Source of the DNA: Oligoflexales bacterium
GTDB lineage: Bacteria > Bdellovibrionota_B > Oligoflexia > Oligoflexales > RGVZ01
Direction: 5' to 3'
DNA: 64,000 nt
NCBI GenBank assembly: GCA_947494335.1
Contig: CANLUT010000002.1
Coordinates: 579,904 to 643,903, forward strand
Each line of letters starts with the position of its first letter. Positions within the stretch are counted from its first letter, which is position 1. A program made the translations under genes and the position numbers. The notes below the pieces were generated by a model. The model was not told the origin of the DNA. It searched no databases and saw nothing but the letters and a program-made list of their open reading frames with translations. Of this stretch, positions 27,941 through 49,743 are shown piece after piece.

Positions 27941-27942
27941 GA

Positions 27943-37063: not shown

Positions 37064-37630
37064 ATGGGTGACGCTCTTGTGTGGAGTGAGGTTCAGTTGA
37101 CTATAAAGCATTTATTTGACCAAAAACGCATGCGCGTCTGTCATTGGAACGCAACTCCAGGATTTATTTCTGCAGCTTCTGCTGCCATCGAGCATCACCT
37201 TAAACTTTTAATAAAATTAGATATGGTTGAGGTGCGTTCGCTAGACGACCCCAACCTAAGGCCGGCTGATGTGCTGTTTATTTCAGCAGATGGTATTGAG
37301 GACGAACAGTATCCCGTATGGCTAAAAGGTATAAGTACTCGAATTCCCAAGGCTCACGGCATTCCTGTACCTACGATTATTTTTGGTAATATTTCGTCGG
37401 CTGTCCAGTCAGAGATTCTGCGATGGGCAGTTGAAGGCAATTGGTATTTTGATATTGTCGACCCCGGCCATGTCTCAAGCTTAACTGTGCGTGTTGCCAA
37501 CTTCCTAAGGGTTCATGATCACCTTCATGAGATCCGGCGCATGAGTATCGCCAGCAAGACTTTGGAGGACAAGGTTGCGGACATGGAAAAACAAATTGAG
37601 CAAATATTGAAAGGCCCCACCAAGCCGTGA
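37064..37630 (+). CDS. Hypothetical protein (receiver-like fold with C-terminal coiled coil; weak)
   Basis: 188-aa ORF. VLFISADG and PTIIFGN resemble CheY beta3/beta4, followed by a helical tail. Its stop overlaps the next start (GTGA). Confidence 0.45.
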   Translation: MGDALVWSEVQLTIKHLFDQKRMRVCHWNATPGFISAASAAIEHHLKLLIKLDMVEVRSLDDPNLRPADVLFISADGIEDEQYPVWLKGISTRIPKAHGIPVPTIIFGNISSAVQSEILRWAVEGNWYFDIVDPGHVSSLTVRVANFLRVHDHLHEIRRMSIASKTLEDKVADMEKQIEQILKGPTKP

Positions 37631-37917
37631 CCATGATTGACGCCAAAAATATGTCCGACGAAGGTTTAATCGCACATTATGTGATTGAGCTTCTTGGAGC
37701 CGGACATTTCCTGTCCCATGATGACTACGCGCGGCTTGGAAAGTGGCGTGAACTGTCTTCGTCAACTGATGAGCTGCTTCTCGTCTTAGATGAAGTCCTG
37801 TCCGCAAAAATTATGAAATCTCGTCAAAAGGGCAAAAAAGTTTTTTCTCTCTCCTCGATCAGCAAAACTATGGAAAAAAGGCTGAGTGAGCGAAAAATGC
37901 TCGTTCAAGGGGCTTAA
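37627..37917 (+). CDS. Hypothetical small protein
   Basis: 96-aa ORF, translationally coupled on both sides. Alternative ATG at 37633. No family recognised. Confidence 0.4.
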   Translation: MTMIDAKNMSDEGLIAHYVIELLGAGHFLSHDDYARLGKWRELSSSTDELLLVLDEVLSAKIMKSRQKGKKVFSLSSISKTMEKRLSERKMLVQGA

Positions 37918-37918
37918 C

Positions 37919-38314
37919 ATGTCAAAAACTACTGATGTCGATATGGACAAGATTGTCGAAAGATTGAAAATAGACCGCATCAAGCGGCATATTTTTTTAT
38001 GTACTGGAGACAAATGTTGTTCGGCAGAGACTGGCATGAAAACCTGGGAGTTCCTTAAAAAACGAACTAAGGATGCTGATGCCGTTGAGGCTGGAGTTTA
38101 CCGAACAAAGGTTGGTTGTCTTCGCATTTGCCGCGAAGGTCCTATAGCTCTCGTTTACCCCGAAGGGGTTTGGTACAAAAATGTCACGGTTGACGCATGC
38201 GAGAAAATCATCGATCAGCATTTGATCTGTGGACAAATTGTGGAAGAACTAAAAATCGCCGAGCATTCATTACATCTGGATTTATCGTCAGGTGGCCAAT
38301 GGGACACCCCCTAG
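37919..38314 (+). CDS. Thioredoxin-like [2Fe-2S] ferredoxin family protein
   Basis: HIFLCTGDKCC and GCLRICREGP give the CX4C...CX3C cysteine pattern of thioredoxin-fold 2Fe-2S ferredoxins. The ATG at 37919 lies 1 nt after the upstream stop. Confidence 0.6.
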   Translation: MSKTTDVDMDKIVERLKIDRIKRHIFLCTGDKCCSAETGMKTWEFLKKRTKDADAVEAGVYRTKVGCLRICREGPIALVYPEGVWYKNVTVDACEKIIDQHLICGQIVEELKIAEHSLHLDLSSGGQWDTP

Positions 38315-38423: not shown

Positions 38424-38438
38424 ATTGACGTCGTCAAT
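38424..38438. promoter_or_regulatory. Perfect 7-1-7 palindrome ATTGACG-T-CGTCAAT upstream of the rhodopsin gene (candidate operator overlapping a -35-like TTGACG)
   Basis: Read directly from the sequence. It lies 84-98 nt upstream of the ATG at 38522. TTGACG, an 18-nt spacer, then GACAAT could be a promoter. Confidence 0.3.
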
Positions 38439-38521
38439 TTAAATATGAGACAATCTACTGAGGAATTCACATTAATGTTCAGTGTCTAGGTTGCTAATTT
38501 AATTTGGAGTGGAGTCAAAGT

Positions 38522-39283
38522 ATGACGGAACTAACAGCAGCGCAGTTTTCGCTCGTTTACAACATGTTTTCTTTAACCATTGCTAGTATGGGGGCAGCAT
38601 TCATCTTCTTCCTAGCATCTAGGTCGCAAGTCGCGCCGAAATACCGTGGTGCGCTTACAGTGTCATCGTTGGTGGTGGCGATTGCTTGCTATCACTATTT
38701 CCGTATCTTCAATAGCTGGAACGAAGCGTTTACCTTAAGCGGCGCAGTCTACACGCCATCTGGGAAACCATTCAACGATGCTTACCGCTATGTTGATTGG
38801 CTTTTGACAGTTCCTCTACTTCTTGTTGAACTCGTTGCAGTATTGGCTTTGCCAAAAAATCAGCGCGAAGGCCTCTTTGGTAAGCTAGCTATCGCGGCTT
38901 TCCTGATGATTGCACTTGGTTACCCTGGTGAAGTCGCTACAGATAACACAACTCGCGCCATTTGGGGCACACTGTCTTCGATCCCATTCGCATACATCCT
39001 AATGATCCTTTGGGGCAAATTGGGTGCAGCAATCGAAAGCCAGCCAGGCGAGGCTAAAGTCTACTTGACTAATATCCGCCTACTACTTCTTTTGACTTGG
39101 GGCTTCTACCCAATCACCTACATGCTTCCGATGTTCGGCATTGACCCACAATCCTCGGTTGTTGGTATTCAGGTTGGATATGCTGTCGCTGACGTGCTTG
39201 CAAAAGCCTTCTACGGCGTTATGATCTACTGGATCGCAAGAGCTAAGTCAGAAAACGAAGGTTTCGCTGACGCTGCCCACTAA
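38522..39283 (+). CDS. Microbial rhodopsin, proteorhodopsin/xanthorhodopsin-type outward proton pump (DTE motif)
   Basis: Seven TM helices. RYVDWLLTVPLLLVE gives D92/T96/E103 (the DTE motif). H58 sits in CYHYF (the PR/XR-clade His). L100 is at the spectral-tuning site. ADVLAK gives D224 and the Schiff-base K228. WGFYPITY is in helix F. The ATG at 38522 follows GGAGTGGAG. The track's TTG at 38504 is less likely. Confidence 0.9.
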   Translation: MTELTAAQFSLVYNMFSLTIASMGAAFIFFLASRSQVAPKYRGALTVSSLVVAIACYHYFRIFNSWNEAFTLSGAVYTPSGKPFNDAYRYVDWLLTVPLLLVELVAVLALPKNQREGLFGKLAIAAFLMIALGYPGEVATDNTTRAIWGTLSSIPFAYILMILWGKLGAAIESQPGEAKVYLTNIRLLLLLTWGFYPITYMLPMFGIDPQSSVVGIQVGYAVADVLAKAFYGVMIYWIARAKSENEGFADAAH

Positions 39284-39323
39284 TTTGGCAGCTGGTCGCA
39301 TGAGCGTCCTAAAGTGCATTTGA

Positions 39324-41372
39324 TTAAACCGCCTTCGCTGAAAAGCGAGGCGGTTTTTTCTTCAGAAATCTTTTCATGACCGGCGCATGAGACGCAGTTA
39401 AAGCTCCGATCCCTAAGAAAACGATCTTCCAAATTTGTTGACTACCGCCTGAGCGCGCATAGAGCCAGGCGAGCAGAAGAATCCCTACAAGGCTCAAGGT
39501 CGTGTAGGGGAGACTTTTTAACAGGTATTGCTTAGATGACCAGCCTTTTGCAGCTCGTTGGACCGCAATAGAATCCCAGCCGTGCCAGAATGCGAAGAAA
39601 CAAAAAAACCCAGGCAGTAGAGGTAGCGCCAAGGTTGAAGCGGCGAGCGCCAATGTAGCGGGCATTCCGATCACAGACCTACCAAGAGTCTTACGCTCAT
39701 ATCGATCAAAAATCGCGGACACAAACAGTGCTGCAACGAAAACAAGTACGCCGCATGCGCGCGCGGCCTCCAAGGTGATTCCCTCGATTGAAAGCGAATC
39801 ACCAAGAATTAACTGAATAATCGAATTGGCCTCCTGCCAATGGACTAGAACACCAAAGGTTGCGGCAAAAAAACCCCATACCCAAGCTAACACGCGGCTC
39901 CAAGTGGCATTCTTCGAGCTTTTTATGGCACGAATCCAGTTTGCCTCGCCGAAATGATCTGCAGATTGGAACAGGAAAAATGCTAACGCCATCGGGGGAA
40001 ATACAAACCAAGTGAGAATAAACAGTGCTATGGAGCCAAGATAAACACCATAAAACTGATAGGGTCTTTGAGCTGTGGGCTCAAGGAGATGATCTACGCT
40101 GCCGTGCCCAATTCCAGTCGTTAACAGACCTATGATGGGAATCGTCCATCCGGCCAAACCACCAAGTGTCCAATGAAGAACGAGACTGGCCGACGCCGCA
40201 AATATAAACGGATACAAAACTAAAAGACTACGTAAAAATGGAGCCCAAGGCAGACCAAAAAATATTCTAATTTCTTCAGTAAATTTCGATTTTTCATCAA
40301 GGAATAAGAGGATTTTTGAGGGACTATTCGCAGAGAAAAGAATGCAAAATACTTTCGAGATCATTTCTCCATTTGTTCTGATAATTCGCAGAAGAAGTGC
40401 GTCATAAACCTGAAAGCGAAAATGTCCGTAGGACGTGGTCGCTAAACCAGTCAAATGCCGAAGGTTTCTCTGGAAAGAGTAGCCTGTGCTTGCTTTGACC
40501 ATACCAGCAGCACTACCAATGACCTGGATAACTGAACTAGAGTCAGACCCTGGGAATTTCGGCTCCGCATTGAGAGTCATGGGAATAGCACCTGATTCTA
40601 CCTTGAGGATTTGGAAGTCTGGTAAGCAAAGCTTGCTAGAAATATATTCTCGAAGTATTGACTCACACTTTTCCAATGAGATCCTGTTGGCTGCAAACAC
40701 CGTAAATTCGACCAAAGCGCGACGTCGATCAAACGGTAAAACATACACAAAGCGAACTTCGCCGCGTTGTTCAAGCCTAAAATCCATCAAGTCCACTATT
40801 TGCGGATCAAAGTAATCCCGCTCTGTTTCAAGTTCAAAACCGAGGAAATACTGTAATAATTCGGACTTTTCGACAGTCACAGAATTATAGATACGCTTGG
40901 CTGAAAACGTCTGGCCAGACGCGGTCGTGACGACGGCTATCCTCTCTGCGTTGACCTCCTCGGGTCGCTCTAGAATCTCGGTGACAGAATCTTTGAGTTT
41001 TTGAAATCTTATATCGTTTTCGAGTCTTTGCTTGATTTTGATTAGGAGGCGGTCCCCGGGAATTCTCTCGTAGTAGTAATCACCAAAGTTACAGATAATT
41101 GGCCGACCATCTGTCGAAGTTATCCGAAATTTCTCCCAGCGGTTTTCGATACAATCTGAATAACGATGGGGAGTGGTTGTTTTAAGGCGCCATGAGGCAA
41201 ATGTCTTGGATGAAAGCGACTCAGGGTCTGGATCGATGATCGCAACTCGAAGATCTTTTGACGGGTCATCTGCAAGAATATCGGCTTGCATCAGACCCGC
41301 TAACCCACCACCAACGATTATGACGTCGAAATCTGTCAAATTGGAGACCATTTTATCAGCCTCCCTTTCCAC
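39324..41372 (-). CDS. Fusion protein: lycopene beta-cyclase (CrtY family) N-terminal, Brp/Blh beta-carotene 15,15'-dioxygenase C-terminal
   Basis: Cyclase half (about aa 1-385): FAD fold DVIIVGGGLAGL, FVYVLPFDRRRALVEFTVF, VIGSAAGMVKASTGYSF. Blh half (about aa 385-682): polytopic, with conserved His motifs GIGHGSVDH, QSADHFGE and FAFWHGWDS. One uninterrupted frame. Alternative ATG at 41351. Confidence 0.85.
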   Translation of the reverse strand: MEREADKMVSNLTDFDVIIVGGGLAGLMQADILADDPSKDLRVAIIDPDPESLSSKTFASWRLKTTTPHRYSDCIENRWEKFRITSTDGRPIICNFGDYYYERIPGDRLLIKIKQRLENDIRFQKLKDSVTEILERPEEVNAERIAVVTTASGQTFSAKRIYNSVTVEKSELLQYFLGFELETERDYFDPQIVDLMDFRLEQRGEVRFVYVLPFDRRRALVEFTVFAANRISLEKCESILREYISSKLCLPDFQILKVESGAIPMTLNAEPKFPGSDSSSVIQVIGSAAGMVKASTGYSFQRNLRHLTGLATTSYGHFRFQVYDALLLRIIRTNGEMISKVFCILFSANSPSKILLFLDEKSKFTEEIRIFFGLPWAPFLRSLLVLYPFIFAASASLVLHWTLGGLAGWTIPIIGLLTTGIGHGSVDHLLEPTAQRPYQFYGVYLGSIALFILTWFVFPPMALAFFLFQSADHFGEANWIRAIKSSKNATWSRVLAWVWGFFAATFGVLVHWQEANSIIQLILGDSLSIEGITLEAARACGVLVFVAALFVSAIFDRYERKTLGRSVIGMPATLALAASTLALPLLPGFFCFFAFWHGWDSIAVQRAAKGWSSKQYLLKSLPYTTLSLVGILLLAWLYARSGGSQQIWKIVFLGIGALTASHAPVMKRFLKKKPPRFSAKAV
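39326..39359 (+). terminator. Rho-independent terminator for the rhodopsin gene, embedded in the 3' codons of the convergent crtY-blh gene
   Basis: AAACCGCCTTCGC-tgaaaa-GCGAGGCGGTTTTTT: a stem with one bulge followed by a T6 tract. Confidence 0.6.
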
Positions 41373-42493
41373 TCATAGCGACCACTCTGACTGGTCCTTA
41401 GGGCCTTGTAAGCAGCGATGTCCAATAGCAGTAAACTGAGCGGGTGCAGCAGTAGATCACGAAGTGGCATCATAAAACATTTAGCCACTAAAACCCTGCT
41501 CAAAGCCAACAAACAAAGTGAAATAAAGGCCAACTCGGGTCGAAAAAAATAACCCCAAATTGGAAATAGAAAAACAAAATTAATAAATCCGATAACGCAT
41601 CTAAAAACCGACGGTGTACCACCACCGATCGCCACTAGATTTTTCGAAAATCCAGCCAAGGTAGCCCGCCAATCGGGGTACATCGATACCCGAATGTGAC
41701 TCGCTGAGAGAACTGGCTGAAGACCACGACCTGTGACTCGGTGAATCTGACGCGCCAGTTCGACGTCCTCTAACGGGGTCGAACCAAGACCTCGGTGACC
41801 GCCGCTTTTACAATAGTCCCTCTTGAAGATGGCGACCCATTGCCCATTTGCCATCTGCATCGATTGCAAGGGTAAGCGCCACGAGCAAAACAAGGGTAGC
41901 GACATCATTAATGGAAGATGCATAATCCATGGTATCAGTAAACGCTCACGCAAGCCTTGGCACGACTGTGCTGGTAAAGCCGATAACCCGGACATTAGCT
42001 CGCGCGCCCGTGGCTGCATCAAGAGATCTACGGTACAACGAACAGCGCTGGGCGAGGGTCGCACATCGGCGTCGCAGAAAATTAAAATATCTCCATTAGC
42101 TAAGTCGGCAAGTTGTGCGCAAGCATGAGCTTTCCCCGAGATTTCTTTACTATCGTTCCATGGGACTCCCCGCACGATCTTTAATGGGATAGTAGTATTT
42201 GACAAGAACGAGTTTGCAATCGCTGAGGAGTCGTCGTGAGACTCGTCATCTAAAATAATCACCTCCATTGGTCTGTAAGTTGATGCCAGCAGATTCGTCA
42301 GAAGGTGGGGGATATTTTCGGCCTCATTTCGAACAGGTATGAGTAAACTGACCAGGGGTTTTTCACCTGAATATTCAGTCACACTTCCCAGTTTAGTTGC
42401 AAAAATTGCATTAAGGATGACCATTATCGTGGAGATAACAATGACCGAGAATGAAATCAAACTTACGATGTTACTGAGGAGGGTTAGATCCAT
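41336..42493 (-). CDS. Family-2 glycosyltransferase (candidate carotenoid glycosyltransferase, CruC/CruG-like)
   Basis: VSLLIPVRNEAENI...VIILDDESHDDS and FCDADV are GT2 (GT-A) motifs, with C-terminal TM helices. Overlaps both neighbours within the crt operon. Confidence 0.7.
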   Translation of the reverse strand: MDLTLLSNIVSLISFSVIVISTIMVILNAIFATKLGSVTEYSGEKPLVSLLIPVRNEAENIPHLLTNLLASTYRPMEVIILDDESHDDSSAIANSFLSNTTIPLKIVRGVPWNDSKEISGKAHACAQLADLANGDILIFCDADVRPSPSAVRCTVDLLMQPRARELMSGLSALPAQSCQGLRERLLIPWIMHLPLMMSLPLFCSWRLPLQSMQMANGQWVAIFKRDYCKSGGHRGLGSTPLEDVELARQIHRVTGRGLQPVLSASHIRVSMYPDWRATLAGFSKNLVAIGGGTPSVFRCVIGFINFVFLFPIWGYFFRPELAFISLCLLALSRVLVAKCFMMPLRDLLLHPLSLLLLDIAAYKALRTSQSGRYEWKGRLIKWSPI

Positions 42494-43152
42494 CGGTGGA
42501 CGCCTCCTGCTAGTAAAGTCTGGGGTGCGTTCAAGGATGCTACATCTAAAATTTTTGTGACTTCAGTCTCTAAAGTTTTATGATCAACTTCAGTACGCGC
42601 GCTATCAATTGGTTGACCGGCGTAAATGAAGGCCGTCGGCCTCTCATGATTCATAGGCTCAATGTGCAGCCCAATAGGAACGTACTGAACCCGACCTGTA
42701 ATTTTAGATAGTATTTCAATTCCACGCAGAAAGCCGAGTGGCCGTTGCCGCAGTGGTGATATTTTCCCTTGTGGGAAAAATGTTAGAGTCCGATAAGGAT
42801 TACTGGCAACCAGGTCTCGAAACTGCATAAAAGCTCGACGCACACTTGTTGGATTTCCCGGCTCTATTCCAAAGCAACCCACCTTGCGTAAGATTGGGAA
42901 TTTCGCAAGTTCGCTTTCCAGCATCAATGAGAAGATACCGGATCCAGGCCTCAGGCGATTTTGGACTTCAAAGCAGAAAAAACCATCCCACCAGCTAATA
43001 TGATTTGGCACCAATATAACTGGTACCTCAGGATTCAGTTGACCAATGGCGTTTTTCAAATCGAAATGTATAGATGCAAAACATTTCTGGTACTTCCAAT
43101 GGAGGTACCGATCCCAAAACCATCGGACAATGTCGTTATGTCGAGGTGCCAC
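42484..43152 (-). CDS. PlsC-type acyltransferase (candidate carotenoid-glycoside acyltransferase, CruD-like)
   Basis: HX4D motif in VPNHISWWDGF, and FFPQGK. The functional assignment is by context. Confidence 0.65.
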   Translation of the reverse strand: MAPRHNDIVRWFWDRYLHWKYQKCFASIHFDLKNAIGQLNPEVPVILVPNHISWWDGFFCFEVQNRLRPGSGIFSLMLESELAKFPILRKVGCFGIEPGNPTSVRRAFMQFRDLVASNPYRTLTFFPQGKISPLRQRPLGFLRGIEILSKITGRVQYVPIGLHIEPMNHERPTAFIYAGQPIDSARTEVDHKTLETEVTKILDVASLNAPQTLLAGGVHRWI

Positions 43153-44017
43153 GGGTCAATAATCCGAGCTGCAAAGTCCCTCGCGTGAAACTAAAAAGAC
43201 AGAGTAATAATAGTGTAACGGTCGTAAGAACAACAGGTGACCAGGCTGATCCAGCAATTGAAAGACCAACCGGAAGGGACAGGCTTAACAAGTAAAATTT
43301 GGCAGGCCACGAACGCTCAAAGCGATGGCCATAATTTGATAAACCCAAAATCTCAAAACTGAGGAATATTAAAAAGCCGGTGAGCAACCATCCAAAAAGA
43401 TTTCTGACGGCAACTCCTAAGAAAAAGACCCCAGACTCTTCCCAAATCCAGTAAGGAGTTAACTGACTCATGGCAGGCTCCAGGGTGAAATCCCAGGCGA
43501 CTAGGAGCAATGATGCTATGATGATCCGTCCGAGGGGATGCGCCAAGCGACCTATAGAGCCTCGAGAGGCTCTCAGAGGTTTAGGCCCAAGAATCTGATT
43601 TGCTAGCAGATAACAACACAGAGCCATGCAAAACCAACTCACAGGAATCAACACAGGAACTTTATCGCCAAGCTTCCATCCAAGGAGGCTCGTATAGGAA
43701 TATTTGCCAAACGGGATACCGTAGCTTGTGCCGCCAAATTCCATAAAAAAACTGATCAAAAAAGCAGGCAGAAAGTACACCAGCCAACGCCAGCCCAAAA
43801 CTTTGTGGGCGGCCCTTATGCACAACCAAAAGCAAAGAAGAATCTGCAATCTAGCAAAAAGCGGGTATGATATGGCATAAATTGGCGGAGACCACGGATA
43901 GCGCGCAAAAAGCTCTGGATGTAGCGTAAAAGTTGCGTATCCAAAAATTGATATGGCATTAATGAAAAGCAAGGCCCACATTGGGGAGAAGAATAGCACA
44001 TGAGTCACTCGGGGCAA
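43136..44017 (-). CDS. Carotenoid biosynthesis membrane protein, DUF422/CruF-like (candidate carotenoid 1',2'-hydratase)
   Basis: Polytopic. GGTSYGIPFGKYSYTSLLGW and LEPAMS...WIWEESGVFFLGVAVRNLFGW resemble the Caroten_synth/CruF family. The track start is TTG 44017. ATG 43981 (MWALLFIN...) is a plausible alternative. Confidence 0.6.
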   Translation of the reverse strand: MPRVTHVLFFSPMWALLFINAISIFGYATFTLHPELFARYPWSPPIYAISYPLFARLQILLCFWLCIRAAHKVLGWRWLVYFLPAFLISFFMEFGGTSYGIPFGKYSYTSLLGWKLGDKVPVLIPVSWFCMALCCYLLANQILGPKPLRASRGSIGRLAHPLGRIIIASLLLVAWDFTLEPAMSQLTPYWIWEESGVFFLGVAVRNLFGWLLTGFLIFLSFEILGLSNYGHRFERSWPAKFYLLSLSLPVGLSIAGSAWSPVVLTTVTLLLLCLFSFTRGTLQLGLLTRGTST

Positions 44018-44761
44018 GGATATTTAGGACGTACGACAGTCATCAGCAGTGACAGCACAGCTCCGGCCTTAGGATGTTTAGTCGTTACCACATGGGTTGT
44101 AAGCCTTTGGTATGCGTTTACGCGCGTTCAAACAGGTGTTTTCCCTGACTCTTTAGCCAGCATTGCCTTAATGCTCTGGATGCAGTTTCTTTATTGTGGT
44201 CTATTTATCGTGACCCACGATGCCTGCCATGGCACTGCGTGGCCCGGAAATCCGAGGCTGAATCGATGGCTGGGGAAAACTACAGCGATGCTGTATGCGG
44301 CCTTTGATTTCGATCATCTGGTCCCGAAGCACCTTGCTCATCACGCTCATGTTGCAACCCTCCAAGATCCAGATTTCCACGATAATACTCGGCAGGGGAG
44401 AGGTTTTTCCGCCTGGGGTTGGCGATTTTTTAAGCATTATCTGAGCCTAAGGCAAATTCTTATCATGATGGCTGTGGCTCAGATTTTTTTTCATGTGCTG
44501 AATATACCGGAGAGAAACGTCATCCAATTTTGGATCGTCCCAGCTATTTTGAGTGGCATGCAGCTCTTTCTATTCGGCACTTGGCTACCACACAGGCCAA
44601 AAGCTGGTGAAGAGTTTCCCGATCGTCATCACGCGAGAGACTCTGGACTACCTTGGTTATTATCACTCGTTTCCTGCTGGCATTTCGGCTACCATCATAT
44701 TCATCACTTGAAACCCAGCGTGCCTTGGTACAGGTTACCGTCCTATAGGAGGCGAAAATGA
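44000..44761 (+). CDS. crtW: Beta-carotene 4-ketolase, CrtW type
   Basis: Fatty-acid-desaturase-type His boxes in CrtW arrangement: FIVTHDACHG, KHLAHHAH, DPDFH, WLPHRP and HFGYHHIHHL..PWYRLP. Confidence 0.85.
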   Translation: MSHSGQGYLGRTTVISSDSTAPALGCLVVTTWVVSLWYAFTRVQTGVFPDSLASIALMLWMQFLYCGLFIVTHDACHGTAWPGNPRLNRWLGKTTAMLYAAFDFDHLVPKHLAHHAHVATLQDPDFHDNTRQGRGFSAWGWRFFKHYLSLRQILIMMAVAQIFFHVLNIPERNVIQFWIVPAILSGMQLFLFGTWLPHRPKAGEEFPDRHHARDSGLPWLLSLVSCWHFGYHHIHHLKPSVPWYRLPSYRRRK

Positions 44762-44964
44762 AATTGCGATCGATCTTAATGTGGACCACGGGTGGCGCGT
44801 TGTTTGGAGTCGCCTTCGGAGCGATAGCTTCTATCTTTCAAGGTGGTCCAGATATGATGCGAGGTATCCAGGAATCATGGTGGTGGTTTGGCGTCGCTGG
44901 ATTTTTGATATCAACGATCGGCAACGGCAGCGATCCCGCGAGTGGCTCTAGTCAATCTCATTGA
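44758..44964 (+). CDS. Small two-TM membrane protein, translationally coupled to crtW
   Basis: The ATG overlaps the crtW stop (ATGA), with AGGAGG 5 nt upstream. 68 aa with two hydrophobic helices (GGALFGVAFGAIASIF; WWWFGVAGFLISTIG). Its last 54 nt overlap the 3' end of convergent crtB. Confidence 0.45.
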   Translation: MKLRSILMWTTGGALFGVAFGAIASIFQGGPDMMRGIQESWWWFGVAGFLISTIGNGSDPASGSSQSH

Positions 44965-45822
44965 CCCCAGTCCTTTGATCTTGAATACAAGTAATAGACC
45001 CTGAGCGACTGCGACTAACTTGCCCAGATTCGAAACCACAGTTCGCCTGCGGAACGCAGATTCTGGATTTACTTTCGCAGATCGCAACAGTTTATGCCCA
45101 ATTCGCTGATAAACCTTACCTGCGATTGCAATGGCAAAAGACACTCTCCAAGGCAGCCAGTAGATCCCTTGAAATCCATGTTCATACAACTCGTCTGCTC
45201 TTCGAAGTAGTTTGTTGACCGCATAGTGCGCAATTTCAGGATTGGTCGACAAAACCTTTGCGTCGATATTAACCAAAAGATCTTTGGGTATATAGATGCG
45301 ACCAATACTTGCATCGGCTTGGATATCTCGGGCGATGTTAGTCAACTGCATCGCAGAGCCCAGAGAAATAGCGTGAGCACTTGCCTGGTCAGGATGAGCT
45401 CCGAGAAGTGGGCACATCATAAGTCCTACGACGCCCGCGACACGAAAGCAATACTGTTCGAGCTCTTTGAGATTCCCGTAGCGGCAGCCTTCCACATCCA
45501 TGCGCATACCGGCAATGAATTCTGATCGCTGCCAGTCATCTAGCCAAAGCGGTCCAGAAAGAGCTGCATTTACTGACCCACGATTTTCCATCAGGGAAAG
45601 TCGTGCCTCTGCCGACTGCGAGTCAGGTGCATCATCGATGGCGTCATCACAGCGCCTACACCACTGATAAAGAAGTAAGACTTTGTCTCGGCAGCTCTTC
45701 GGCAGGAAAAGTGAGGCTAAGGAGAAACTTTTTGAGCCTTGCTTGATGACTTCAGCTGGAGACGAAGTAAAGTTAATTGTTTGTGAGTAAGTCATGCGTC
45801 GCTCCCGGCTCGCGACTTCCAA
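44911..45822 (-). CDS. crtB: Phytoene synthase
   Basis: YCFRVAGVVGLMMCPLLG and AMQLTNIARDIQADASIGRIYIP are squalene/phytoene synthase signatures. Alternative ATG at 45795. Confidence 0.9.
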   Translation of the reverse strand: MEVASRERRMTYSQTINFTSSPAEVIKQGSKSFSLASLFLPKSCRDKVLLLYQWCRRCDDAIDDAPDSQSAEARLSLMENRGSVNAALSGPLWLDDWQRSEFIAGMRMDVEGCRYGNLKELEQYCFRVAGVVGLMMCPLLGAHPDQASAHAISLGSAMQLTNIARDIQADASIGRIYIPKDLLVNIDAKVLSTNPEIAHYAVNKLLRRADELYEHGFQGIYWLPWRVSFAIAIAGKVYQRIGHKLLRSAKVNPESAFRRRTVVSNLGKLVAVAQGLLLVFKIKGLGSMRLTRATRGIAAVADR

Positions 45823-47329
45823 CGGGGAGAGCTGCCTTCAAGTCTTGAAGTACCAAAGATGCAGTAGCCTTAGCCGAGTTGACGACTCCTGGAACGCCGG
45901 CGCCTGGATGAGTCCCAGCCCCTGTAAAGTACATTCCAGCAACTCGACCATCGCGGTTATGAGTGCGAAAGAATGCGCTTTGCCAGAGTACGGGTTCACT
46001 GGAAAACGCTGAGCCCAGGTGTGAGTTTAATTCAAATTTGAAATCCAACGGAGTGAAAATCTTCTGAGTCACAATGTGCTTGCGCAGGTCGGGAGCGTAA
46101 TGTTGCTCAATATAACTTAATATACGGTCTGCGTAGGCTGGGCCTTCCTTTTGCCAGTCTAAATGAAGATTTCCGAGGTGCGGCACTGGAGATAGAACGT
46201 AAAATGCTTCACACCCTTCAGGCGCCATCCCTGGATCAGTCCGCGTCGGAGCATGCAAGTAGAGAGAAAAATCATCCGGGATTTTACTAGCCTTGGAAAA
46301 GATTTGACTCAAAAGTCCACGGTAGGACTTTCCGAAAAGAATATTATGATGTGCAAGCTCTGGATACTGTTTGTTAGTACCAAAATACACTAAGAATAAT
46401 GACATGCTTTGCGAGTGACTAAGAACCTTCTTTCGTCCTTGCTCTGCCTCGGGGGCGTTTCTTAGAAGATGGCTGTACGTGTGTACAACATCCGCGTTGG
46501 AAACAACAACATCACAAGGCCATACGCCGCTTGCAGTTTTCACACCACTAACGTGACCCTCAGTTGTGATGATCTCCTCCACTGGCGACGATAATCGAAC
46601 CTCACCACCGAGCTCTTCAAAGAGTCTGACTAATGCACGAACCAAAGCACCCGTGCCACCGCGTGGGAAGAAGACACCCCACTTTCGCTCAAGATAGTGG
46701 ATCAAAGTATAAATAGAAGACGTTTTAAAAGGGTTGCCGCCAACCAATAGCGTGTGAAAACTGAAGGCTTGACGGAGCTGAGGATCCTTGATGAAACGTG
46801 CGACCGTCTTGAAAACTGAGCGATGAGCGCTTAGTTTGGCTAGCTGCGGAGCGACACGGATCATGCTCCACCAGTTTAGGAACGGCACGTGGGCTAGTTT
46901 CGTGTAACCCTCGTCAAAAACCTCTTTTGAATATTTCAGAAATCTGGAGTAGCCATCCGTATCTTGTGGGGATTTTTTTTGAATTTGATCAAAAGTGCTT
47001 ACGGGGTCGTTGGAGTAATCAAATGAAAACCCATTCTCCCAGAATAATCGATAGAAGGGCGTCACAGGCATCATCTCGACGTAGTCTTCCATCCTTTTAC
47101 CGGCACAGTCGAAAAGTTCTCGCAAACAGTCTGGAGCAGTGATGACAGTCGGTCCGGCGTCAAACGTAAAGCCTTTGTCCCGGTAAACGTATGCCCGGCC
47201 TCCGGGTTGATCCCGTTTTTCAAACACTACAACCTGATGGCCTGCCGCTTGCAATCGGATGGCGGCAGCAAGACCTCCAAACCCACTTCCAATGACAGCA
47301 ATACGAGCAGAGTTCTTATTTTTATGCAT
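45773..47329 (-). CDS. crtI: Phytoene desaturase
   Basis: N-terminal IAVIGSGFGGLAAAIRL and the C-terminal CrtI signature FTGAGTHPGAGVPGV. Confidence 0.9.
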   Translation of the reverse strand: MHKNKNSARIAVIGSGFGGLAAAIRLQAAGHQVVVFEKRDQPGGRAYVYRDKGFTFDAGPTVITAPDCLRELFDCAGKRMEDYVEMMPVTPFYRLFWENGFSFDYSNDPVSTFDQIQKKSPQDTDGYSRFLKYSKEVFDEGYTKLAHVPFLNWWSMIRVAPQLAKLSAHRSVFKTVARFIKDPQLRQAFSFHTLLVGGNPFKTSSIYTLIHYLERKWGVFFPRGGTGALVRALVRLFEELGGEVRLSSPVEEIITTEGHVSGVKTASGVWPCDVVVSNADVVHTYSHLLRNAPEAEQGRKKVLSHSQSMSLFLVYFGTNKQYPELAHHNILFGKSYRGLLSQIFSKASKIPDDFSLYLHAPTRTDPGMAPEGCEAFYVLSPVPHLGNLHLDWQKEGPAYADRILSYIEQHYAPDLRKHIVTQKIFTPLDFKFELNSHLGSAFSSEPVLWQSAFFRTHNRDGRVAGMYFTGAGTHPGAGVPGVVNSAKATASLVLQDLKAALPVGSREPGATHDLLTNN

Positions 47330-48380
47330 ATGCAGTCATCACTTTCTGTGCCAGCTCTCGTAGCGAGGATATTGCCGCCACTTGCGCGCTAGTTTCGACG
47401 ATACAATTTAACTGATCCAAACATGTTTCGAATTCTGTCGTTGCTAATTCATGAGCCTTCTCGACGACTCGCTTTAAGAGTAATGAATCATCACTAGAAA
47501 TTTGATTAGGATTTCCCATCAAGTGCTGAAATCTCATAAATTCCGCCGCTTCAAGTTCTCTGGCAGCTACAGCCCAAACCCAGGAAGGCCTGACTAGTGG
47601 CCTACTGATCGTTTGATTCTTATTTTTTGGCGATACATCTCCAATGTCGTTAAACATCTGTAAGGCCACGCCGAAACGCTGACCGAATTTTGCCAGACAG
47701 CGGCGTCTCATTGAGTCCGCCTCACCCACGATTGCGCCTAATTCAGCACACATACCAGTTAGCTCGCCAGTCTTCAGTTCTATCGCTGCAACGGAAATAT
47801 CGAGCGCTTTCTGTTGAGAGCATTGGGTCATGTCGTGGCCAAGGTCAAGAGCCTGCCCCTGATGAGCGTACAGCATGGTCTTGTGGAAAAGACGGTAGAT
47901 CTCGAGCTCAACGGATGGATTAAGAGCCTGCTGACGCAGTAAATCTATTGGCCAAAAATAAAGCCAGTTCGCCGCATTGATGGTACGTGGAACTCCGATC
48001 TGCATATGCAGCGCCGCCTTGCCGCGGCGCATTTCGTCTGCATCTTGGATGTCATCGATCATGAGTGAGCCAGCATGCAAGGCTTCAACCACGCATGCCA
48101 AGCAGTCGAGAAGTGATTGCTGGCTTGCGATCAAGGGTTCAGCCTTAGTATTGGCGATAGTAAATCCAATGTGAACTAGTTGCGCACGAACCTGCTTGGA
48201 ATTACGACTTGCAAACTCACGAACCGGTGCTACCAAAGCAGCGTCTAAACTAGGATCAGAGGCGCTCGGTAGATGAGCAGCTAAAATAGGCACTAGCTCG
48301 GACCGGGTGTTATTATTTTGCAAGTATGTTTTATGATTTATCACCGGGAGAAGGGTAATAGATGTCTCAGTCGGGGTCAA
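47322..48380 (-). CDS. crtE: Polyprenyl (geranylgeranyl) diphosphate synthase
   Basis: First Asp-rich motif LMIDDIQDADEMRRGK. The second motif is degenerate (FNDIGD). First gene of the crtE-crtI-crtB unit, with an 8-nt overlap onto crtI. TTG start in the ORF track. Confidence 0.8.
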   Translation of the reverse strand: MTPTETSITLLPVINHKTYLQNNNTRSELVPILAAHLPSASDPSLDAALVAPVREFASRNSKQVRAQLVHIGFTIANTKAEPLIASQQSLLDCLACVVEALHAGSLMIDDIQDADEMRRGKAALHMQIGVPRTINAANWLYFWPIDLLRQQALNPSVELEIYRLFHKTMLYAHQGQALDLGHDMTQCSQQKALDISVAAIELKTGELTGMCAELGAIVGEADSMRRRCLAKFGQRFGVALQMFNDIGDVSPKNKNQTISRPLVRPSWVWAVAARELEAAEFMRFQHLMGNPNQISSDDSLLLKRVVEKAHELATTEFETCLDQLNCIVETSAQVAAISSLRELAQKVMTAYA

Positions 48381-48609: not shown

Positions 48610-49743
48610 CTACTCGGTCAAAGATCTCAATCTTTTCGGATGAAAAATTGCTTGTACGGTTTTAGATCTGCCGTTAGCTATAAATTCCGAAAGTCCTCGC
48701 CCGGCTGCGCAGCCCAGGGTGAGTCCTGAGCCCATGTAGCCGCTGGCCATCAGAACTCTTGAATCATTATACATGGGTCCAATGATTGGAATTTCATCGC
48801 AAGCCCTAAGCTCAAGAAGTGCTTGCTGCTGTGTCGGCTTCGAAAGTTTCACATCAAAGAGCGACTCAATTCTTTGCTTGACGGTGCTAGTGATCTTTTC
48901 GTCTAGATGCGCTCGGCTTGCCTCTACGCCAGCCCACTTTCTTAGATACCTCGCTCCACCGGCGCGAAGCTTTCTGTCCGAGGTGACTGAAATCCAGTAT
49001 TGGCTAAAATCCGCGAGTAGAAGGTTGCCAGGAGTCAAAAACGGATGCCCTCCATCAAACTCAAACTCCGCCCACTGGTCGGCATGATTGACTAGGCAGG
49101 ATTCCATGTTGGGAATGATTTTTTTGATTCCAAGGTGACTTGCTACCACAACAACTTCTGCCGTCAGCGTTGTTCCTGAAGACGTGACAACCGAGATATG
49201 GCGAGGAGCTGTTTCAATTCTGATGACTTCCTCTGGAAAAATCTTTCTACTAAGGTCTTCTTCCATATGACGCAGTAAGGATCCTATATTGATTGATGCG
49301 GAAGCCGCACCATCCGACTGGTAGGTCAGTTTTCGTGTCCCGCGCCCATCAAGACTTACAGAGCTTGGAAAGCCATTGCTGGCAAGCCAAGAGCTGGCGA
49401 CGGCCATCTCCTGTGCTTCCATATCTGACTGGGTGAGCCGGTAAACCCGCCCCGCGTGGTGGTTAACTTTAAACTGAGTTATCAGATCCATTAAATCTGA
49501 AAAGCCGATACGACCGAGCCTTAACAGGTTTCTTGCAGCGTCCTCGCCGTGCCCGTGCACCGTTCGAGAGATGTTATCCAAAGTGGAAATGGCTGCGTAG
49601 CCCGAGTTTATAGAGGCGCAGTTGGTAAAGTCGCGACTCGGAGCAACAAAGCAAAAAGATCCAATGCCATAGCGCTTCAGGTGAAAGCCTGTACTCAGAC
49701 CCGTAATACCCCTTCCAATTATGATGACGTCGAATGCTTCCAT
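48610..49743 (-). CDS. FAD-dependent oxidoreductase (DAO/glycine-oxidase-like family)
   Basis: N-terminal dinucleotide fold FDVIIIGRGITGLSTG. 377 aa. Confidence 0.7.
   Translation of the reverse strand: MEAFDVIIIGRGITGLSTGFHLKRYGIGSFCFVAPSRDFTNCASINSGYAAISTLDNISRTVHGHGEDAARNLLRLGRIGFSDLMDLITQFKVNHHAGRVYRLTQSDMEAQEMAVASSWLASNGFPSSVSLDGRGTRKLTYQSDGAASASINIGSLLRHMEEDLSRKIFPEEVIRIETAPRHISVVTSSGTTLTAEVVVVASHLGIKKIIPNMESCLVNHADQWAEFEFDGGHPFLTPGNLLLADFSQYWISVTSDRKLRAGGARYLRKWAGVEASRAHLDEKITSTVKQRIESLFDVKLSKPTQQQALLELRACDEIPIIGPMYNDSRVLMASGYMGSGLTLGCAAGRGLSEFIANGRSKTVQAIFHPKRLRSLTE

What the first reader, a model, noticed from the sequence alone, without database searches (positions are those of the whole stretch)
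38424..48380. Compact island encoding opsin, complete retinal pathway and keto-carotenoid acyl-glycoside pathway: predicted self-contained two-chromophore (antenna plus retinal) proton pump
Ten adjacent genes fall into three convergent or divergent units:
- rhodopsin, plus strand;
- cruF-like, acyltransferase, GT2 and crtY::blh, minus strand, all overlapping each other;
- crtW with a coupled small membrane ORF, plus strand;
- crtE, crtI and crtB, minus strand, overlapping each other.

crtE, crtB, crtI, crtY and blh are the established route from GGPP to retinal. The extra genes are crtW (4-ketolase), a CruF-like hydratase, a glycosyltransferase and an acyltransferase. That is the enzyme set associated with monocyclic 4-keto carotenoid acyl glycosides of the salinixanthin or myxol type.

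Salinixanthin is the light-harvesting antenna of Salinibacter xanthorhodopsin. Its 4-keto ring docks where the opsin carries Gly instead of Trp, and the opsin here has that Gly (G149). The inference is that this island builds both chromophores and the pump.

I saw no integrase, transposase or flanking tRNA. If the island was acquired, the acquisition is not recent or not element-borne. Whether this host lineage is already known to carry such a system cannot be decided from the sequence.
Basis: partly seen in the sequence, partly recalled or inferred. Interest (0 to 1): 0.85.

Follow-up and report, generated by a model that had tools for sequence, protein, structure and literature searches.

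The report
Rhodopsin pump with own pigment pathway
A 10-kb gene island in an uncultured freshwater Oligoflexales bacterium (Bdellovibrionota) encodes a xanthorhodopsin-type proton pump, the full retinal pathway and enzymes for a keto-carotenoid sugar ester that may act as its light antenna. It also encodes a small, undescribed membrane protein that travels with these pumps in several phyla.

Summary
Window 38522-48380 carries ten tightly packed genes:
- a xanthorhodopsin-clade opsin with the DTE pump motif, K228 and G149;
- a crtY::blh fusion, a GT2 glycosyltransferase, a PlsC-type acyltransferase (AT) and cruF;
- crtW plus a coupled 68-aa membrane ORF;
- crtB, crtI and crtE.

The host is an uncultured freshwater Oligoflexales bacterium (Bdellovibrionota). 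Opsin, blh, GT2, AT and cruF are syntenic in twelve related contigs, and crtW is linked in eleven. This holds even in three where crtEBIY lie elsewhere. Remote relatives of the AT and GT2 sit as a pair next to crtI-family genes in three other phyla, with a cruF-like gene in two of them.

The set matches every genetically known salinixanthin-pathway component, with CrtW in place of CrtO. The antenna role remains an inference. Gly at this position occurs in 78 of 80 xanthorhodopsin loci. Kin4B8, from a different opsin lineage of the same phylum, binds salinixanthin without energy transfer.

The 68-aa ORF belongs to a tiny unnamed family. Outside the Oligoflexales-type islands it lies immediately downstream of the opsin in all but one context examined.

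Verdict: a real system, a new variant of a known kind. Interest 0.6.

The parts
38425..38454 (+). Promoter-like site (TTGACG, 18-nt spacer, TG-GACAAT) upstream of the opsin
   Evidence: Consensus scan. This is weak evidence, because the number of such sites in the region equals the shuffle expectation. DNA homology to related islands begins at 38482.
38522..39283 (+). Xanthorhodopsin-clade opsin, 253 aa: DTE proton-pump motif (D92, T96, E103), H58, L100, G149, M201, M204, D224, K228
   Evidence: Pfam Bac_rhodopsin at 130 bits. PDB hits: 3ddl XR E=7e-87, 6nwd GR, 7ytb Kin4B8. Key residues come from the alignment, except L100, which is read from the opsin translation. Identity to SrXR is 59% and to Kin4B8 57%.
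39333..39350 (+). Terminator-like hairpin followed by a T-run, just after the opsin and inside the 3' end of the convergent crtY::blh
   Evidence: Consensus scan. Weak evidence.
39324..41372 (-). crtY::blh fusion, 682 aa: lycopene beta-cyclase domain plus beta-carotene 15,15'-dioxygenase domain
   Evidence: Lycopene_cycl at 171 bits (residues 16-308) and BCD at 112 bits (415-667). TIGR03753 scores 121.7, above its cutoff of 95.25. The gene is called as a single 682-684-aa product in L084-L087. The two domains are adjacent and in register in L001-L005. They are separate genes in L028 and L029.
41336..42493 (-). GT2 glycosyltransferase; predicted carotenoid 1'-O-glycosyltransferase, analogous to CruC
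   Evidence: Glycos_transf_2 at 60.6 bits. Full-length 28-35% identity (E 1e-28 to 1e-35) to the GT2 genes paired with the AT homolog beside crtI-family genes in L081-L083. Syntenic in L001-L008.
42484..43152 (-). PlsC/LPLAT-type acyltransferase (AT); predicted glycoside acyltransferase, analogous to CruD
   Evidence: PF01553 at 24 bits against a cutoff of 23. HX4D motif at H51-D56. Remote homologs lie next to a GT2 gene and crtI-family genes in three phyla, with a cruF-like gene alongside in two of them. Syntenic in L001-L008.
43136..44017 (-). CruF-family carotenoid 1',2'-hydratase. The start is either TTG at 44017 or GTG at 43999.
   Evidence: Caroten_synth at 150 bits. NF045693 CruF at 138.8 bits is the best NCBIfam hit but below its cutoff of 400. 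Called as 287 aa in the near-identical contig L088.
44000..44761 (+). CrtW-type (di-iron) carotenoid 4-ketolase
   Evidence: NF045690 CrtW at 223.7 bits is the best hit but below its cutoff of 350. CrtR scores only 61 bits. His boxes HDACH, HLAHH and HHIHH are present. Linked in 7 of the 8 Bdellovibrionota islands L001-L008 and absent from L004.
44758..44964 (+). 68-aa two-helix membrane protein of an unnamed family linked to xanthorhodopsin. It is translationally coupled to crtW (ATGA overlap).
   Evidence: No Pfam or NCBIfam hit. Conserved in L001-L005 and L084-L088. Lies directly downstream of the opsin in 9 loci from other lineages and in 4 further contexts, 5 contigs. Only 61 representatives among 1.84 billion proteins. 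AF2 predicts a helical hairpin, pLDDT 67.
44911..45822 (-). crtB phytoene synthase
   Evidence: SQS_PSY at 179 bits. The best NCBIfam hits are CrtB equivalogs, below their cutoffs.
45773..47329 (-). crtI phytoene desaturase
   Evidence: TIGR02734 at 663.8 bits, above its cutoff of 238. 83-90% identical in relatives.
47322..48380 (-). crtE-like short-chain polyprenyl (GGPP) synthase. The N-terminal start is uncertain.
   Evidence: polyprenyl_synt at 118 bits. GGPP synthase models are among the best NCBIfam hits, all below cutoff. DNA homology to related islands ends at 48227.

Best explanation
This is a conserved photosystem island of freshwater Oligoflexales and related Bdellovibrionota.

**Retinal branch**
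- CrtE, CrtB and CrtI make lycopene.
- The CrtY domain cyclises lycopene to gamma- and beta-carotene.
- The fused Blh domain cleaves beta-carotene to retinal.
- Retinal binds K228 of a green-absorbing, outward proton-pumping xanthorhodopsin with the DTE motif.

**Carotenoid branch**
- CruF hydrates the open end of gamma-carotene.
- The GT2 enzyme glycosylates the 1'-OH.
- The PlsC-type enzyme acylates the sugar.
- CrtW adds the 4-keto group.
- The product would be a monocyclic 4-keto-1'-(acyl-glycosyl)oxy carotenoid of the salinixanthin or keto-OH-gamma-carotene-glucoside-ester class.

**Antenna.** The most likely role of this pigment is a non-covalent antenna. It would dock its keto ring in the G149 fenestration and extend pumping into blue-green light.

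**Small protein.** The 68-aa hairpin protein is a further component of XR photosystems. Its role is unknown; assembly or pigment loading are possibilities.

**Shown:** gene families, catalytic motifs, synteny and linkage.
**Inferred:** the exact product, binding, energy transfer and the role of the small protein.
For: **Gene families and motifs:**

**Island conservation**
- The opsin clade formed by the window, L001-L008 and L010 is monophyletic in a rough neighbour-joining tree. All its members are Bdellovibrionota MAGs.
- The order opsin, blh, GT2, AT, cruF, crtW is kept at 72-98% opsin identity.
- It is kept in L006-L008 even though crtE, crtB, crtI and crtY are not within 10 kb there.
- The modifying enzymes therefore track the opsin and blh, not the core carotenoid pathway.

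**The acyltransferase and GT2 act on carotenoids**
- AT-GT2 is a recurrent pair next to crtI-family genes in Bacillota, Deinococcota and Alphaproteobacteria. A cruF-like gene directly precedes the AT in the first two.
- Rhodothermus marinus genetics assign salinixanthin synthesis to CrtB, CrtI, CrtY, CrtO, CruF, CruC and CruD. Its 3',4'-desaturase and 2'-hydroxylase are still unknown. Every known step is therefore covered here.

**Opsin residues and alternative pathways**
- The floor of the fenestration reads M201-L-P-M204. This resembles SrXR (M-I-P-M) and GR (L-L-P-M), not Kin4B8 (A-M-G-S).
- No CrtZ-type hydroxylase motif (HDG..H) occurs in the window or in L001-L008. XR loci L046 and L064 do carry a linked CrtZ-like gene, and they have Gln at XR position 211.

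**Gene packing:** overlapping reading frames suggest co-translation.
Against: - Kin4B8, attributed to the same phylum but to a different XR lineage (57% identity), binds salinixanthin without energy transfer. It transfers about 4.5-fold less from canthaxanthin than from zeaxanthin.
- psXR has the same Met at XR position 211 but did not bind canthaxanthin, and it did bind lutein. Pocket residues therefore do not predict keto versus hydroxy preference.
- Gly at XR-156 is nearly universal in the clade.
- One island (L004) has no linked ketolase.
- NCBIfam scores for CruF, CrtW, CrtY, CrtB and CrtE are below their equivalog cutoffs.
- Orthology of the GT2 and AT to CruC and CruD could not be tested.
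- No 3',4'-desaturase or 2'-hydroxylase is linked.
- No pigment or protein data exist for this lineage.
Confidence: 0.5

Rival explanations
1. The keto-carotenoid acyl glycoside is a membrane or photoprotective pigment, not an antenna. It quenches singlet oxygen, screens light and tunes membrane rigidity. It is clustered with the opsin only because both branches draw on the same lycopene and gamma/beta-carotene pool and are needed together in the light.
For: - The same AT-GT2 pair, with a cruF-like gene in two of the three cases, occurs in organisms and replicons with no rhodopsin nearby: Cytobacillus, Deinococcus deserti plasmid 2 and Azospirillum.
- R. marinus makes salinixanthin without any rhodopsin.
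- The acI actinorhodopsin literature raises the same alternative.
- Keto-carotenoids are poor donors in Kin4B8.
Against: - In L006-L008 the modifying genes remain glued to opsin and blh while the core pathway lies elsewhere. A generic membrane pigment would be expected to cluster with crtEBI instead.
- Among the 80 XR loci, linkage of crtW, cruF, GT2 and AT to the opsin is confined to one opsin clade.
Confidence: 0.3
2. The pump does use an antenna, but not the glycoside ester. The antenna would be either echinenone or canthaxanthin made by CrtW from beta-carotene, as in Gloeobacter rhodopsin, or exogenous 3-hydroxy xanthophylls taken from prey or the environment, as shown in vitro for Kin4B8.
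For: - GR uses echinenone, and Kin4B8 uses lutein or zeaxanthin from lake extract.
- CrtW and CrtY alone would suffice to make echinenone.
- Many named members of this phylum are predators and could acquire prey pigments; this rests on general knowledge.
Against: - It does not explain why cruF, GT2 and AT are co-inherited with the opsin.
- No hydroxylase is linked.
- L004 keeps cruF, GT2 and AT but lacks crtW.
Confidence: 0.15
3. The GT2 and acyltransferase act on non-carotenoid lipids such as hopanoid-like or envelope glycolipids. Their position in the island would then be incidental.
For: - The best NCBIfam hit of the GT2 is the hopene-associated HpnB, at 70 bits and far below its cutoff.
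- The AT barely passes the Pfam cutoff.
- NCBIfam gives no family for the AT.
Against: - Reading frames overlap with cruF and crtY::blh.
- Synteny is conserved down to 30-40% identity.
- Remote homologs are paired beside crtI-family genes in three other phyla, with a cruF-like gene alongside in two of them.
Confidence: 0.04

Closest known systems
Salinibacter ruber xanthorhodopsin with its salinixanthin antenna (PDB 3DDL)
   Same: - Same opsin clade (59% identity, E=7e-87).
- DTE motif with the His partner.
- Gly at position 156, and Met at positions 208 and 211.
- A predicted monocyclic 4-keto acyl-glycoside carotenoid made by CruF, a GT, an AT and a ketolase.
   Different: - Freshwater Bdellovibrionota host rather than a halophilic member of the Rhodothermaceae.
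- A CrtW ketolase instead of CrtO.
- All genes lie in one 10-kb island. In the related salinixanthin producer R. marinus the pathway genes are not all together; cruC lies far from the cluster.
- A crtY::blh fusion.
- No evidence for the 2'-OH or the 3',4'-didehydro group.
- Binding and energy transfer are untested.
Kin4B8, a freshwater xanthorhodopsin attributed to Bdellovibrionota (PDB 7YTB, 8I2Z)
   Same: Attributed to the same phylum and found in the same kind of habitat. It belongs to the XR clade, has the DTE motif and has the Gly fenestration.
   Different: - Only 57% identical, and in a separate branch with L015.
- The fenestration floor is A-M-G-S rather than M-L-P-M.
- It uses lutein or zeaxanthin, and salinixanthin binds without transferring energy.
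- Its closest locus, L015, shows no linked cruF, crtW, GT2 or AT.
Gloeobacter rhodopsin with echinenone; psXR from an Antarctic Pseudanabaenaceae cyanobacterium
   Same: Same XR clade (55% identity), with Gly156 and Met211. GR uses a 4-keto carotenoid.
   Different: - Cyanobacterial hosts, with no linked carotenoid-modification island.
- psXR rejects canthaxanthin and binds lutein.
Proteorhodopsin and xanthorhodopsin photosystem clusters (opsin plus crtEIBY-blh), for example the Tardiphaga XR operon
   Same: The opsin is linked to the complete retinal route.
   Different: - This island adds four carotenoid-modifying genes and a small membrane protein.
- crtY and blh are fused.
- No mobile elements or tRNA flank it, unlike the Tardiphaga operon.
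The predicted 'actinoxanthin' pathway of acI Actinobacteria, which carry actinorhodopsin
   Same: The same kind of inference. A Gly-fenestrated pump sits in a genome that also encodes cruF, a glycosyltransferase and an acyltransferase, and an antenna role is proposed but not shown.
   Different: - A different opsin family (ActR).
- The genes lie in separate operons, not next to the opsin.
- The ketolase there is uncertain.
Rhodothermus marinus salinixanthin gene cluster
   Same: The CruF, CruD-type AT, GT, CrtY, ketolase, CrtB and CrtI set has genetic support for CruF, CrtB, CrtY and CrtO.
   Different: - R. marinus has no rhodopsin.
- Its fusion is cruF::crtB rather than crtY::blh.
- Its ketolase is CrtO.
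- Its cruC is unlinked.

Membership tests
Xanthorhodopsin-clade light-driven proton pumps | Seven-helix Bac_rhodopsin fold with a Schiff-base Lys in helix G | tested here: met
   PF01036 at 130 bits. K228 aligns with SrXR K240.
Xanthorhodopsin-clade light-driven proton pumps | DTE motif (acceptor Asp, Thr, donor Glu) with the His partner of the counter-ion | tested here: met
   D92, T96, E103 and H58 align with SrXR D96, T100, E107 and H62.
Xanthorhodopsin-clade light-driven proton pumps | Closer to XR, GR and Kin4B8 than to proteorhodopsin, NaR, ClR or BR | tested here: met
   E-values of 7e-87 to 8e-76 for the top five XR-clade-type chains (3ddl XR, 6nwd GR, 7ytb Kin4B8, 9wfa psXR, 5azd). 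This compares with about 1e-29 for chloride and sodium pumps and about 1e-23 for proteorhodopsin.
Xanthorhodopsin-clade light-driven proton pumps | Small residue (Gly) at XR position 156, opening the fenestration | tested here: met
   G149. The residue is shared by 78 of 80 clade loci, so it is necessary but not discriminating.
Xanthorhodopsin-clade light-driven proton pumps | Demonstrated outward proton pumping, carotenoid binding and energy transfer | not testable with these tools
   This needs expression, spectroscopy and an action spectrum.
Retinal biosynthesis module (crtE, crtB, crtI, crtY, blh) | All five activities encoded | tested here: met
   - Pfam hits for all five are above the gathering scores.
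- Blh TIGR03753 and CrtI TIGR02734 are above their NCBIfam cutoffs.
- CrtY, CrtB and CrtE hit the right families, but below the equivalog cutoffs.
Retinal biosynthesis module (crtE, crtB, crtI, crtY, blh) | The CrtE product has C20 (GGPP) chain length | tested here: inconclusive
   GGPP synthase models are among the best hits, at 78 bits against a cutoff of 500. Chain length was not determined.
Salinixanthin-type monocyclic keto-carotenoid acyl-glycoside pathway | CruF-family 1',2'-hydratase | tested here: met
   Caroten_synth at 150 bits. The best NCBIfam hit is CruF, at 138.8 bits and below its equivalog cutoff of 400.
Salinixanthin-type monocyclic keto-carotenoid acyl-glycoside pathway | Carotenoid glycosyltransferase (CruC) and glycoside acyltransferase (CruD) | tested here: inconclusive
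   - The GT2 and PlsC-type domains are present, with a DAD motif in the GT2 and the HX4D motif in the AT.
- Homologous AT-GT2 pairs sit beside crtI-family genes in three phyla.
- Direct orthology to Chlorobaculum or Salinibacter CruC and CruD could not be tested, because no reference sequences or models were available.
Salinixanthin-type monocyclic keto-carotenoid acyl-glycoside pathway | CrtO-type (CrtI-like) 4-ketolase, as in Salinibacter and Rhodothermus | tested here: not met
   The ketolase here is CrtW-type: a FA_desaturase fold, NF045690 as the best hit and three His boxes. It is a functional analogue, not the same enzyme.
Salinixanthin-type monocyclic keto-carotenoid acyl-glycoside pathway | 3',4'-desaturation and 2'-hydroxylation | tested here: inconclusive
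   - No dedicated gene is linked.
- CrtI hits the bifunctional CrtID model at 330 bits, against a cutoff of 640.
- These enzymes are also unidentified in R. marinus.
CrtW beta-carotene ketolase (NF045690) | Score above the equivalog cutoff, plus di-iron His boxes | tested here: inconclusive
   223.7 bits against a cutoff of 350, and the next family (CrtR) scores 61 bits. The His boxes are present.

The most novel reading that the evidence does not exclude
The 68-aa two-helix protein (44758-44964) may be a dedicated, so far undescribed partner of xanthorhodopsin pumps. It could act as an assembly factor, an oligomer-stabilising subunit or a carotenoid-loading subunit.

Its family is tiny: 61 representatives among 1.84 billion proteins. 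In Bacteroidota, Rhodothermales, Ignavibacteria, Sericytochromatia and some Bdellovibrionota contigs it sits immediately downstream of the opsin, forming a two-gene unit. In the Oligoflexales-type island it has moved to lie between crtW and crtB.

If this is right, the 'two-chromophore pump' has a third, protein component. The island would then be a complete, transplantable antenna photosystem from a phylum known mainly for predatory bacteria.
Probability: 0.3. Interest if true: 0.75.

Novelty: new variant of a known kind. Interest (0 to 1): 0.6.

Why it matters
Native antenna pigments are known for very few rhodopsin pumps. For freshwater xanthorhodopsins the only data come from adding lake extracts or commercial xanthophylls to purified protein.

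Here one opsin lineage is physically and evolutionarily tied to a specific pathway for a keto-carotenoid glycoside ester. That gives a concrete prediction for a native antenna, and the prediction conflicts with what the Kin4B8 model from the same phylum prefers. It therefore offers a direct test of what sets keto versus hydroxy selectivity.

The 10-kb island contains everything needed downstream of common isoprenoid precursors. It can be synthesised and expressed as one piece. It also brings a conserved small membrane protein that nobody appears to have studied.

Ecologically, it suggests light-supplemented energy budgets in a phylum known mainly for predatory bacteria.

Tried and rejected
- **Word-indexed search with the acyltransferase.** It returned only 27 lineage-near proteins, which said nothing about family membership. 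A tblastn search against annotated plasmids replaced it and gave the informative contexts.
- **Using the fenestration floor (M201, M204) to predict keto preference.** I rejected this as decisive. psXR shares Met at XR position 211 but rejects canthaxanthin.
- **Treating G149 as evidence for an antenna.** I rejected this because the residue is nearly universal in the clade.
- **Looking for signs of mobility.** None were found: no integrase or transposase domains in the flanking ORFs, no flanking tRNA, no flanking direct or inverted repeats and no GC shift. Relatives carry the island in entirely different flanks. They are only about 74% identical at DNA level, so this does not show recent transfer.
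- **The FAD oxidoreductase at 48610-49743 as a missing desaturase.** I rejected it as part of the island. It is absent beside crtE in L001, L002 and L084-L087. Its Lycopene_cycl hit is marginal (E=0.0075).
- **The GHMP kinase at 35992-37017 as a mevalonate-pathway gene.** The result was ambiguous, and the best hit is a heptose kinase.
- **Literature and names.** Searches for the small ORF and for a crtY::blh fusion found nothing relevant. Cluster-member names for the small-ORF family were all 'hypothetical', with no cultured organism.
- **Kin4B8-like loci.** None among the 80 fetched loci is closer than 64%. I could not examine the gene content of the Kin4B8 fosmid.

Full report
**1. Observation**

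| Gene | Coordinates | Strand |
|---|---|---|
| opsin | 38522-39283 (an in-frame TTG lies at 38504) | + |
| crtY::blh | 39324-41372 | − |
| GT2 | 41336-42493 | − |
| acyltransferase (AT) | 42484-43152 | − |
| cruF-like | 43136-44017 | − |
| crtW | 44000-44761 | + |
| 68-aa ORF | 44758-44964 | + |
| crtB | 44911-45822 | − |
| crtI | 45773-47329 | − |
| crtE | 47322-48380 | − |

- Neighbouring genes on the same strand overlap by 8-50 nt.
- The 68-aa ORF starts inside the crtW stop codon (ATGA).
- The cruF and crtW start codons abut or overlap.
- Pfam and NCBIfam confirm every assignment at family level.
- Blh (TIGR03753) and CrtI (TIGR02734) exceed their curated cutoffs.
- CruF, CrtW, CrtY, CrtB and CrtE hit the correct families as best hits, but below the equivalog cutoffs. 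These are divergent members.
- Catalytic motifs are intact: HX4D in the acyltransferase, three His boxes in CrtW and DAD in the GT2.

**2. The opsin**

- It belongs to the xanthorhodopsin clade. PDB hits are Salinibacter XR 3DDL (E=7e-87), Gloeobacter rhodopsin, Kin4B8 and psXR.
- It is 59% identical to SrXR and 57% to Kin4B8.
- In 253-aa numbering it has H58, D92, T96, E103, D224 and K228, the outward proton-pump set. It also has L100 at the spectral-tuning position, read from the translation, which indicates green absorption.
- That Gly is present in 78 of the 80 XR-clade loci I fetched. It says little on its own.

**3. Host and conservation**

- The closest genomes are freshwater and cryosphere MAGs labelled Oligoflexales, 'Pseudobacteriovorax', Bdellovibrio, Bacteriovoracaceae and Pseudobdellovibrionaceae.
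- A 100%-identical copy of the small ORF sits in the same gene neighbourhood on a 779-kb ENA metagenome contig. This is probably the source genome.
- tblastn of the island proteins against the 80 XR loci shows opsin-[crtY::]blh-GT2-AT-cruF in L001-L008 only, with crtW linked in seven of them. All eight are Bdellovibrionota.
- Four more contigs (L084-L087) with 98%-identical opsins carry the identical ten-gene island.
- In a rough neighbour-joining tree these opsins form one clade: the window, L001-L008 and L010. Kin4B8 pairs with L015 elsewhere in the tree.
- In L006-L008 the core genes crtE, crtB, crtI and crtY are not within 10 kb. Even so, blh, GT2, AT, cruF and crtW stay next to the opsin. 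This is the strongest comparative argument that the modifying enzymes are tied to the pump rather than to carotenogenesis in general.
- L004 lacks a linked ketolase.
- The opsin is far more conserved than the enzymes. Against L084 it is 98% identical, while the enzymes are 64-90% identical and the DNA only about 74% identical.
- The flanks differ completely between relatives, and DNA homology runs only from 38482 to 48227.
- I found no integrase, transposase, tRNA, repeat or GC signal. The island behaves as an old unit of inheritance within the phylum, not as a recent mobile element.

**4. Are the GT2 and the acyltransferase carotenoid enzymes?**

- A word-indexed search found only close relatives.
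- tblastn against annotated plasmids found remote homologs of the acyltransferase at 24-27% identity.
- In Cytobacillus spongiae and on Deinococcus deserti plasmid 2 the homolog directly follows a 'carotenoid biosynthesis protein' (Caroten_synth), with a GT2 gene and crtI-family genes close by.
- In Azospirillum oryzae two crtI-family genes precede the AT-GT2 pair. No Caroten_synth gene is annotated there, and cruF gives no hit.
- The window GT2 aligns full-length with those GT2s, at E 1e-28 to 1e-35.
- AT-GT2 is therefore a recurrent carotenoid glycoside-ester pair, joined by a cruF-like gene in two of the three cases.
- In Rhodothermus marinus, genetics and bioinformatics assign salinixanthin synthesis to CrtB, CrtI, CrtY, CrtO, CruF, CruC and CruD. 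Its 3',4'-desaturase and 2'-hydroxylase remain unidentified.
- The island covers every known step, with CrtW replacing CrtO.
- The predicted product class is a monocyclic 4-keto-1'-(acyl-glycosyl)oxy carotenoid. Whether it carries the 3',4' double bond or the 2'-OH of salinixanthin cannot be decided.

**5. Antenna or not?**

Evidence for:
- the linkage pattern described in section 3;
- the absence of the CrtZ-type hydroxylase motif in the window and in L001-L008, while XR loci L046 and L064 do carry a linked CrtZ-like gene;
- a fenestration floor, M201-L-P-M204, that resembles SrXR and GR rather than Kin4B8's A-M-G-S. In Kin4B8, Ser208 and Tyr209 contact the 3-hydroxyl of lutein.

Evidence against:
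- Kin4B8, attributed to the same phylum, binds salinixanthin with no energy transfer, and transfers about 4.5-fold less from canthaxanthin than from zeaxanthin;
- psXR shares Met at XR position 211 but rejects canthaxanthin and binds lutein;
- the same carotenoid module exists in organisms without rhodopsins.

I put the antenna reading at about 0.5. A photoprotective or membrane role for the pigment is the main rival.

**6. The small ORF**

- The 68-aa protein has no Pfam or NCBIfam family.
- AF2 predicts a helical hairpin, H2-27 and H33-57, at pLDDT 67.
- Its motif is G-x2-F-G-x2-F-G-x2-A-x2-F-x2-G-P-x4-G-x-x-E-[ST]-W-W-W-F.
- It is present in the islands of L001-L005 and L084-L088, always convergent with crtB. 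In L004 and L005 it is not next to crtW.
- In nine XR loci outside the island-bearing clade it lies immediately downstream of the opsin on the same strand. These loci are labelled Rhodothermaceae, Rubricoccaceae, Ignavibacteria, Bacteroidota (three loci), 'Deltaproteobacteria', Sericytochromatia and Tanganyikabacteria.
- Four further contexts, on five contigs, show a bare opsin plus small-ORF pair among housekeeping genes.
- One Rhodothermaceae contig has the small ORF followed by a lycopene cyclase and blh. There the ORF's first 23 residues are a xanthorhodopsin N-terminus, which looks like the scar of an opsin deletion.
- A full HMMER scan of 1.84 billion representatives finds only 61 members.
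- Every name attached to the members listed or sampled is 'hypothetical protein' or an evident automatic mis-annotation, and none comes from a cultured organism.
- I found no paper on the family.
- This family looks like an undescribed companion of xanthorhodopsin.

**7. Comparison with the known, and verdict**

- Xanthorhodopsin with a keto-carotenoid antenna is a known kind of system, in Salinibacter and Gloeobacter.
- XR genes in Bdellovibrionota MAGs have been listed before.
- Kin4B8 is a well-studied XR attributed to this phylum.
- A similar genome-based antenna proposal exists for acI Actinobacteria.
- What I did not find described in the searchable literature:
  - an opsin clade with the whole retinal route and the whole known keto-glycoside-ester route in one conserved 10-kb island;
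  - the crtY::blh fusion, which is specific to this clade; the genes are separate in L028 and L029;
  - the XR-linked small protein.
- I rate the finding as a new variant of a known kind, with interest 0.6. It gives a concrete and testable prediction of a native antenna, and that prediction disagrees with the current model protein from the same phylum. It also yields an unstudied component.

Noticed in passing
window 44758-44964; also L009, L019, L024, L055, L065, L066, L072, L073, L079, L090-L094: An unnamed family of 58-109-aa two-helix membrane proteins lies directly downstream of xanthorhodopsin genes in several phyla. It has only 61 representatives among 1.84 billion proteins and no Pfam or NCBIfam model. 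In the Oligoflexales-type island it sits between crtW and crtB instead.
   Followed up: yes
L092 6001-6255 (protein P0240, Rhodothermaceae MAG): The small-ORF homolog begins with 23 residues that match a xanthorhodopsin N-terminus (…LPTLSAGQYSLVFNMLSFT…). It is followed by a lycopene cyclase and blh, with no opsin. This looks like an in-frame deletion that removed the opsin, or an assembly artefact.
   Followed up: partly
window 39324-41372; L001-L005, L084-L087: crtY and blh are fused into one 682-684-aa protein in this Bdellovibrionota clade only. blh stands alone in L006-L008, and the two genes are separate in L028 and L029. The fusion might channel beta-carotene to retinal and leave gamma-carotene for the CruF branch. 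I found no literature on it.
   Followed up: partly
window 43999-44017: The divergent cruF and crtW start codons abut or overlap, leaving no intergenic DNA. Each promoter must therefore lie inside the other gene's coding sequence. L001 has about 48 nt between the two aligned coding regions.
   Followed up: no
window 38482-48227 against L084-L087: The opsin is 98% identical at protein level. The island DNA is only about 74% identical, and the enzymes are 64-90% identical. The flanks are unrelated. Purifying selection on the opsin is unusually strong relative to its own biosynthetic genes.
   Followed up: partly
L046 19233-19757 and L064 15194-15694: Other XR loci carry a linked CrtZ-like hydroxylase (FA_hydroxylase, HDGFIH motif) together with crtE, crtB and crtI. 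Their opsins have Gln at XR position 211 and Asp at 191. There may be a correlation between a polar residue at 211 and a hydroxy-carotenoid pathway. psXR is a counter-example.
   Followed up: partly
L081 6234-10294; L082 5562-9161; L083 3903-8922: An acyltransferase-GT2 pair next to crtI-family genes recurs on large replicons of Cytobacillus spongiae, Deinococcus deserti and Azospirillum oryzae. A Caroten_synth (cruF-like) gene directly precedes the acyltransferase in the first two. This suggests carotenoid glycoside esters in those organisms.
   Followed up: partly
window 20582-27982 (− strand): A 2466-aa protein with PD40 beta-propeller repeats, many TPR repeats and a C-terminal CHAT protease-like domain. 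It is followed by an 1102-aa ORF (28505-31813) with no Pfam hit.
   Followed up: no
window 31915-33003 (− strand): An MqnC-like radical-SAM enzyme, which points to the futalosine route to menaquinone in this organism.
   Followed up: no
window 37064-38314: Three small ORFs lie immediately upstream of the opsin. Two have no family. The third is a thioredoxin-like 2Fe-2S ferredoxin (NF041612, 61 bits, below its cutoff). They are not conserved next to the island in relatives.
   Followed up: partly
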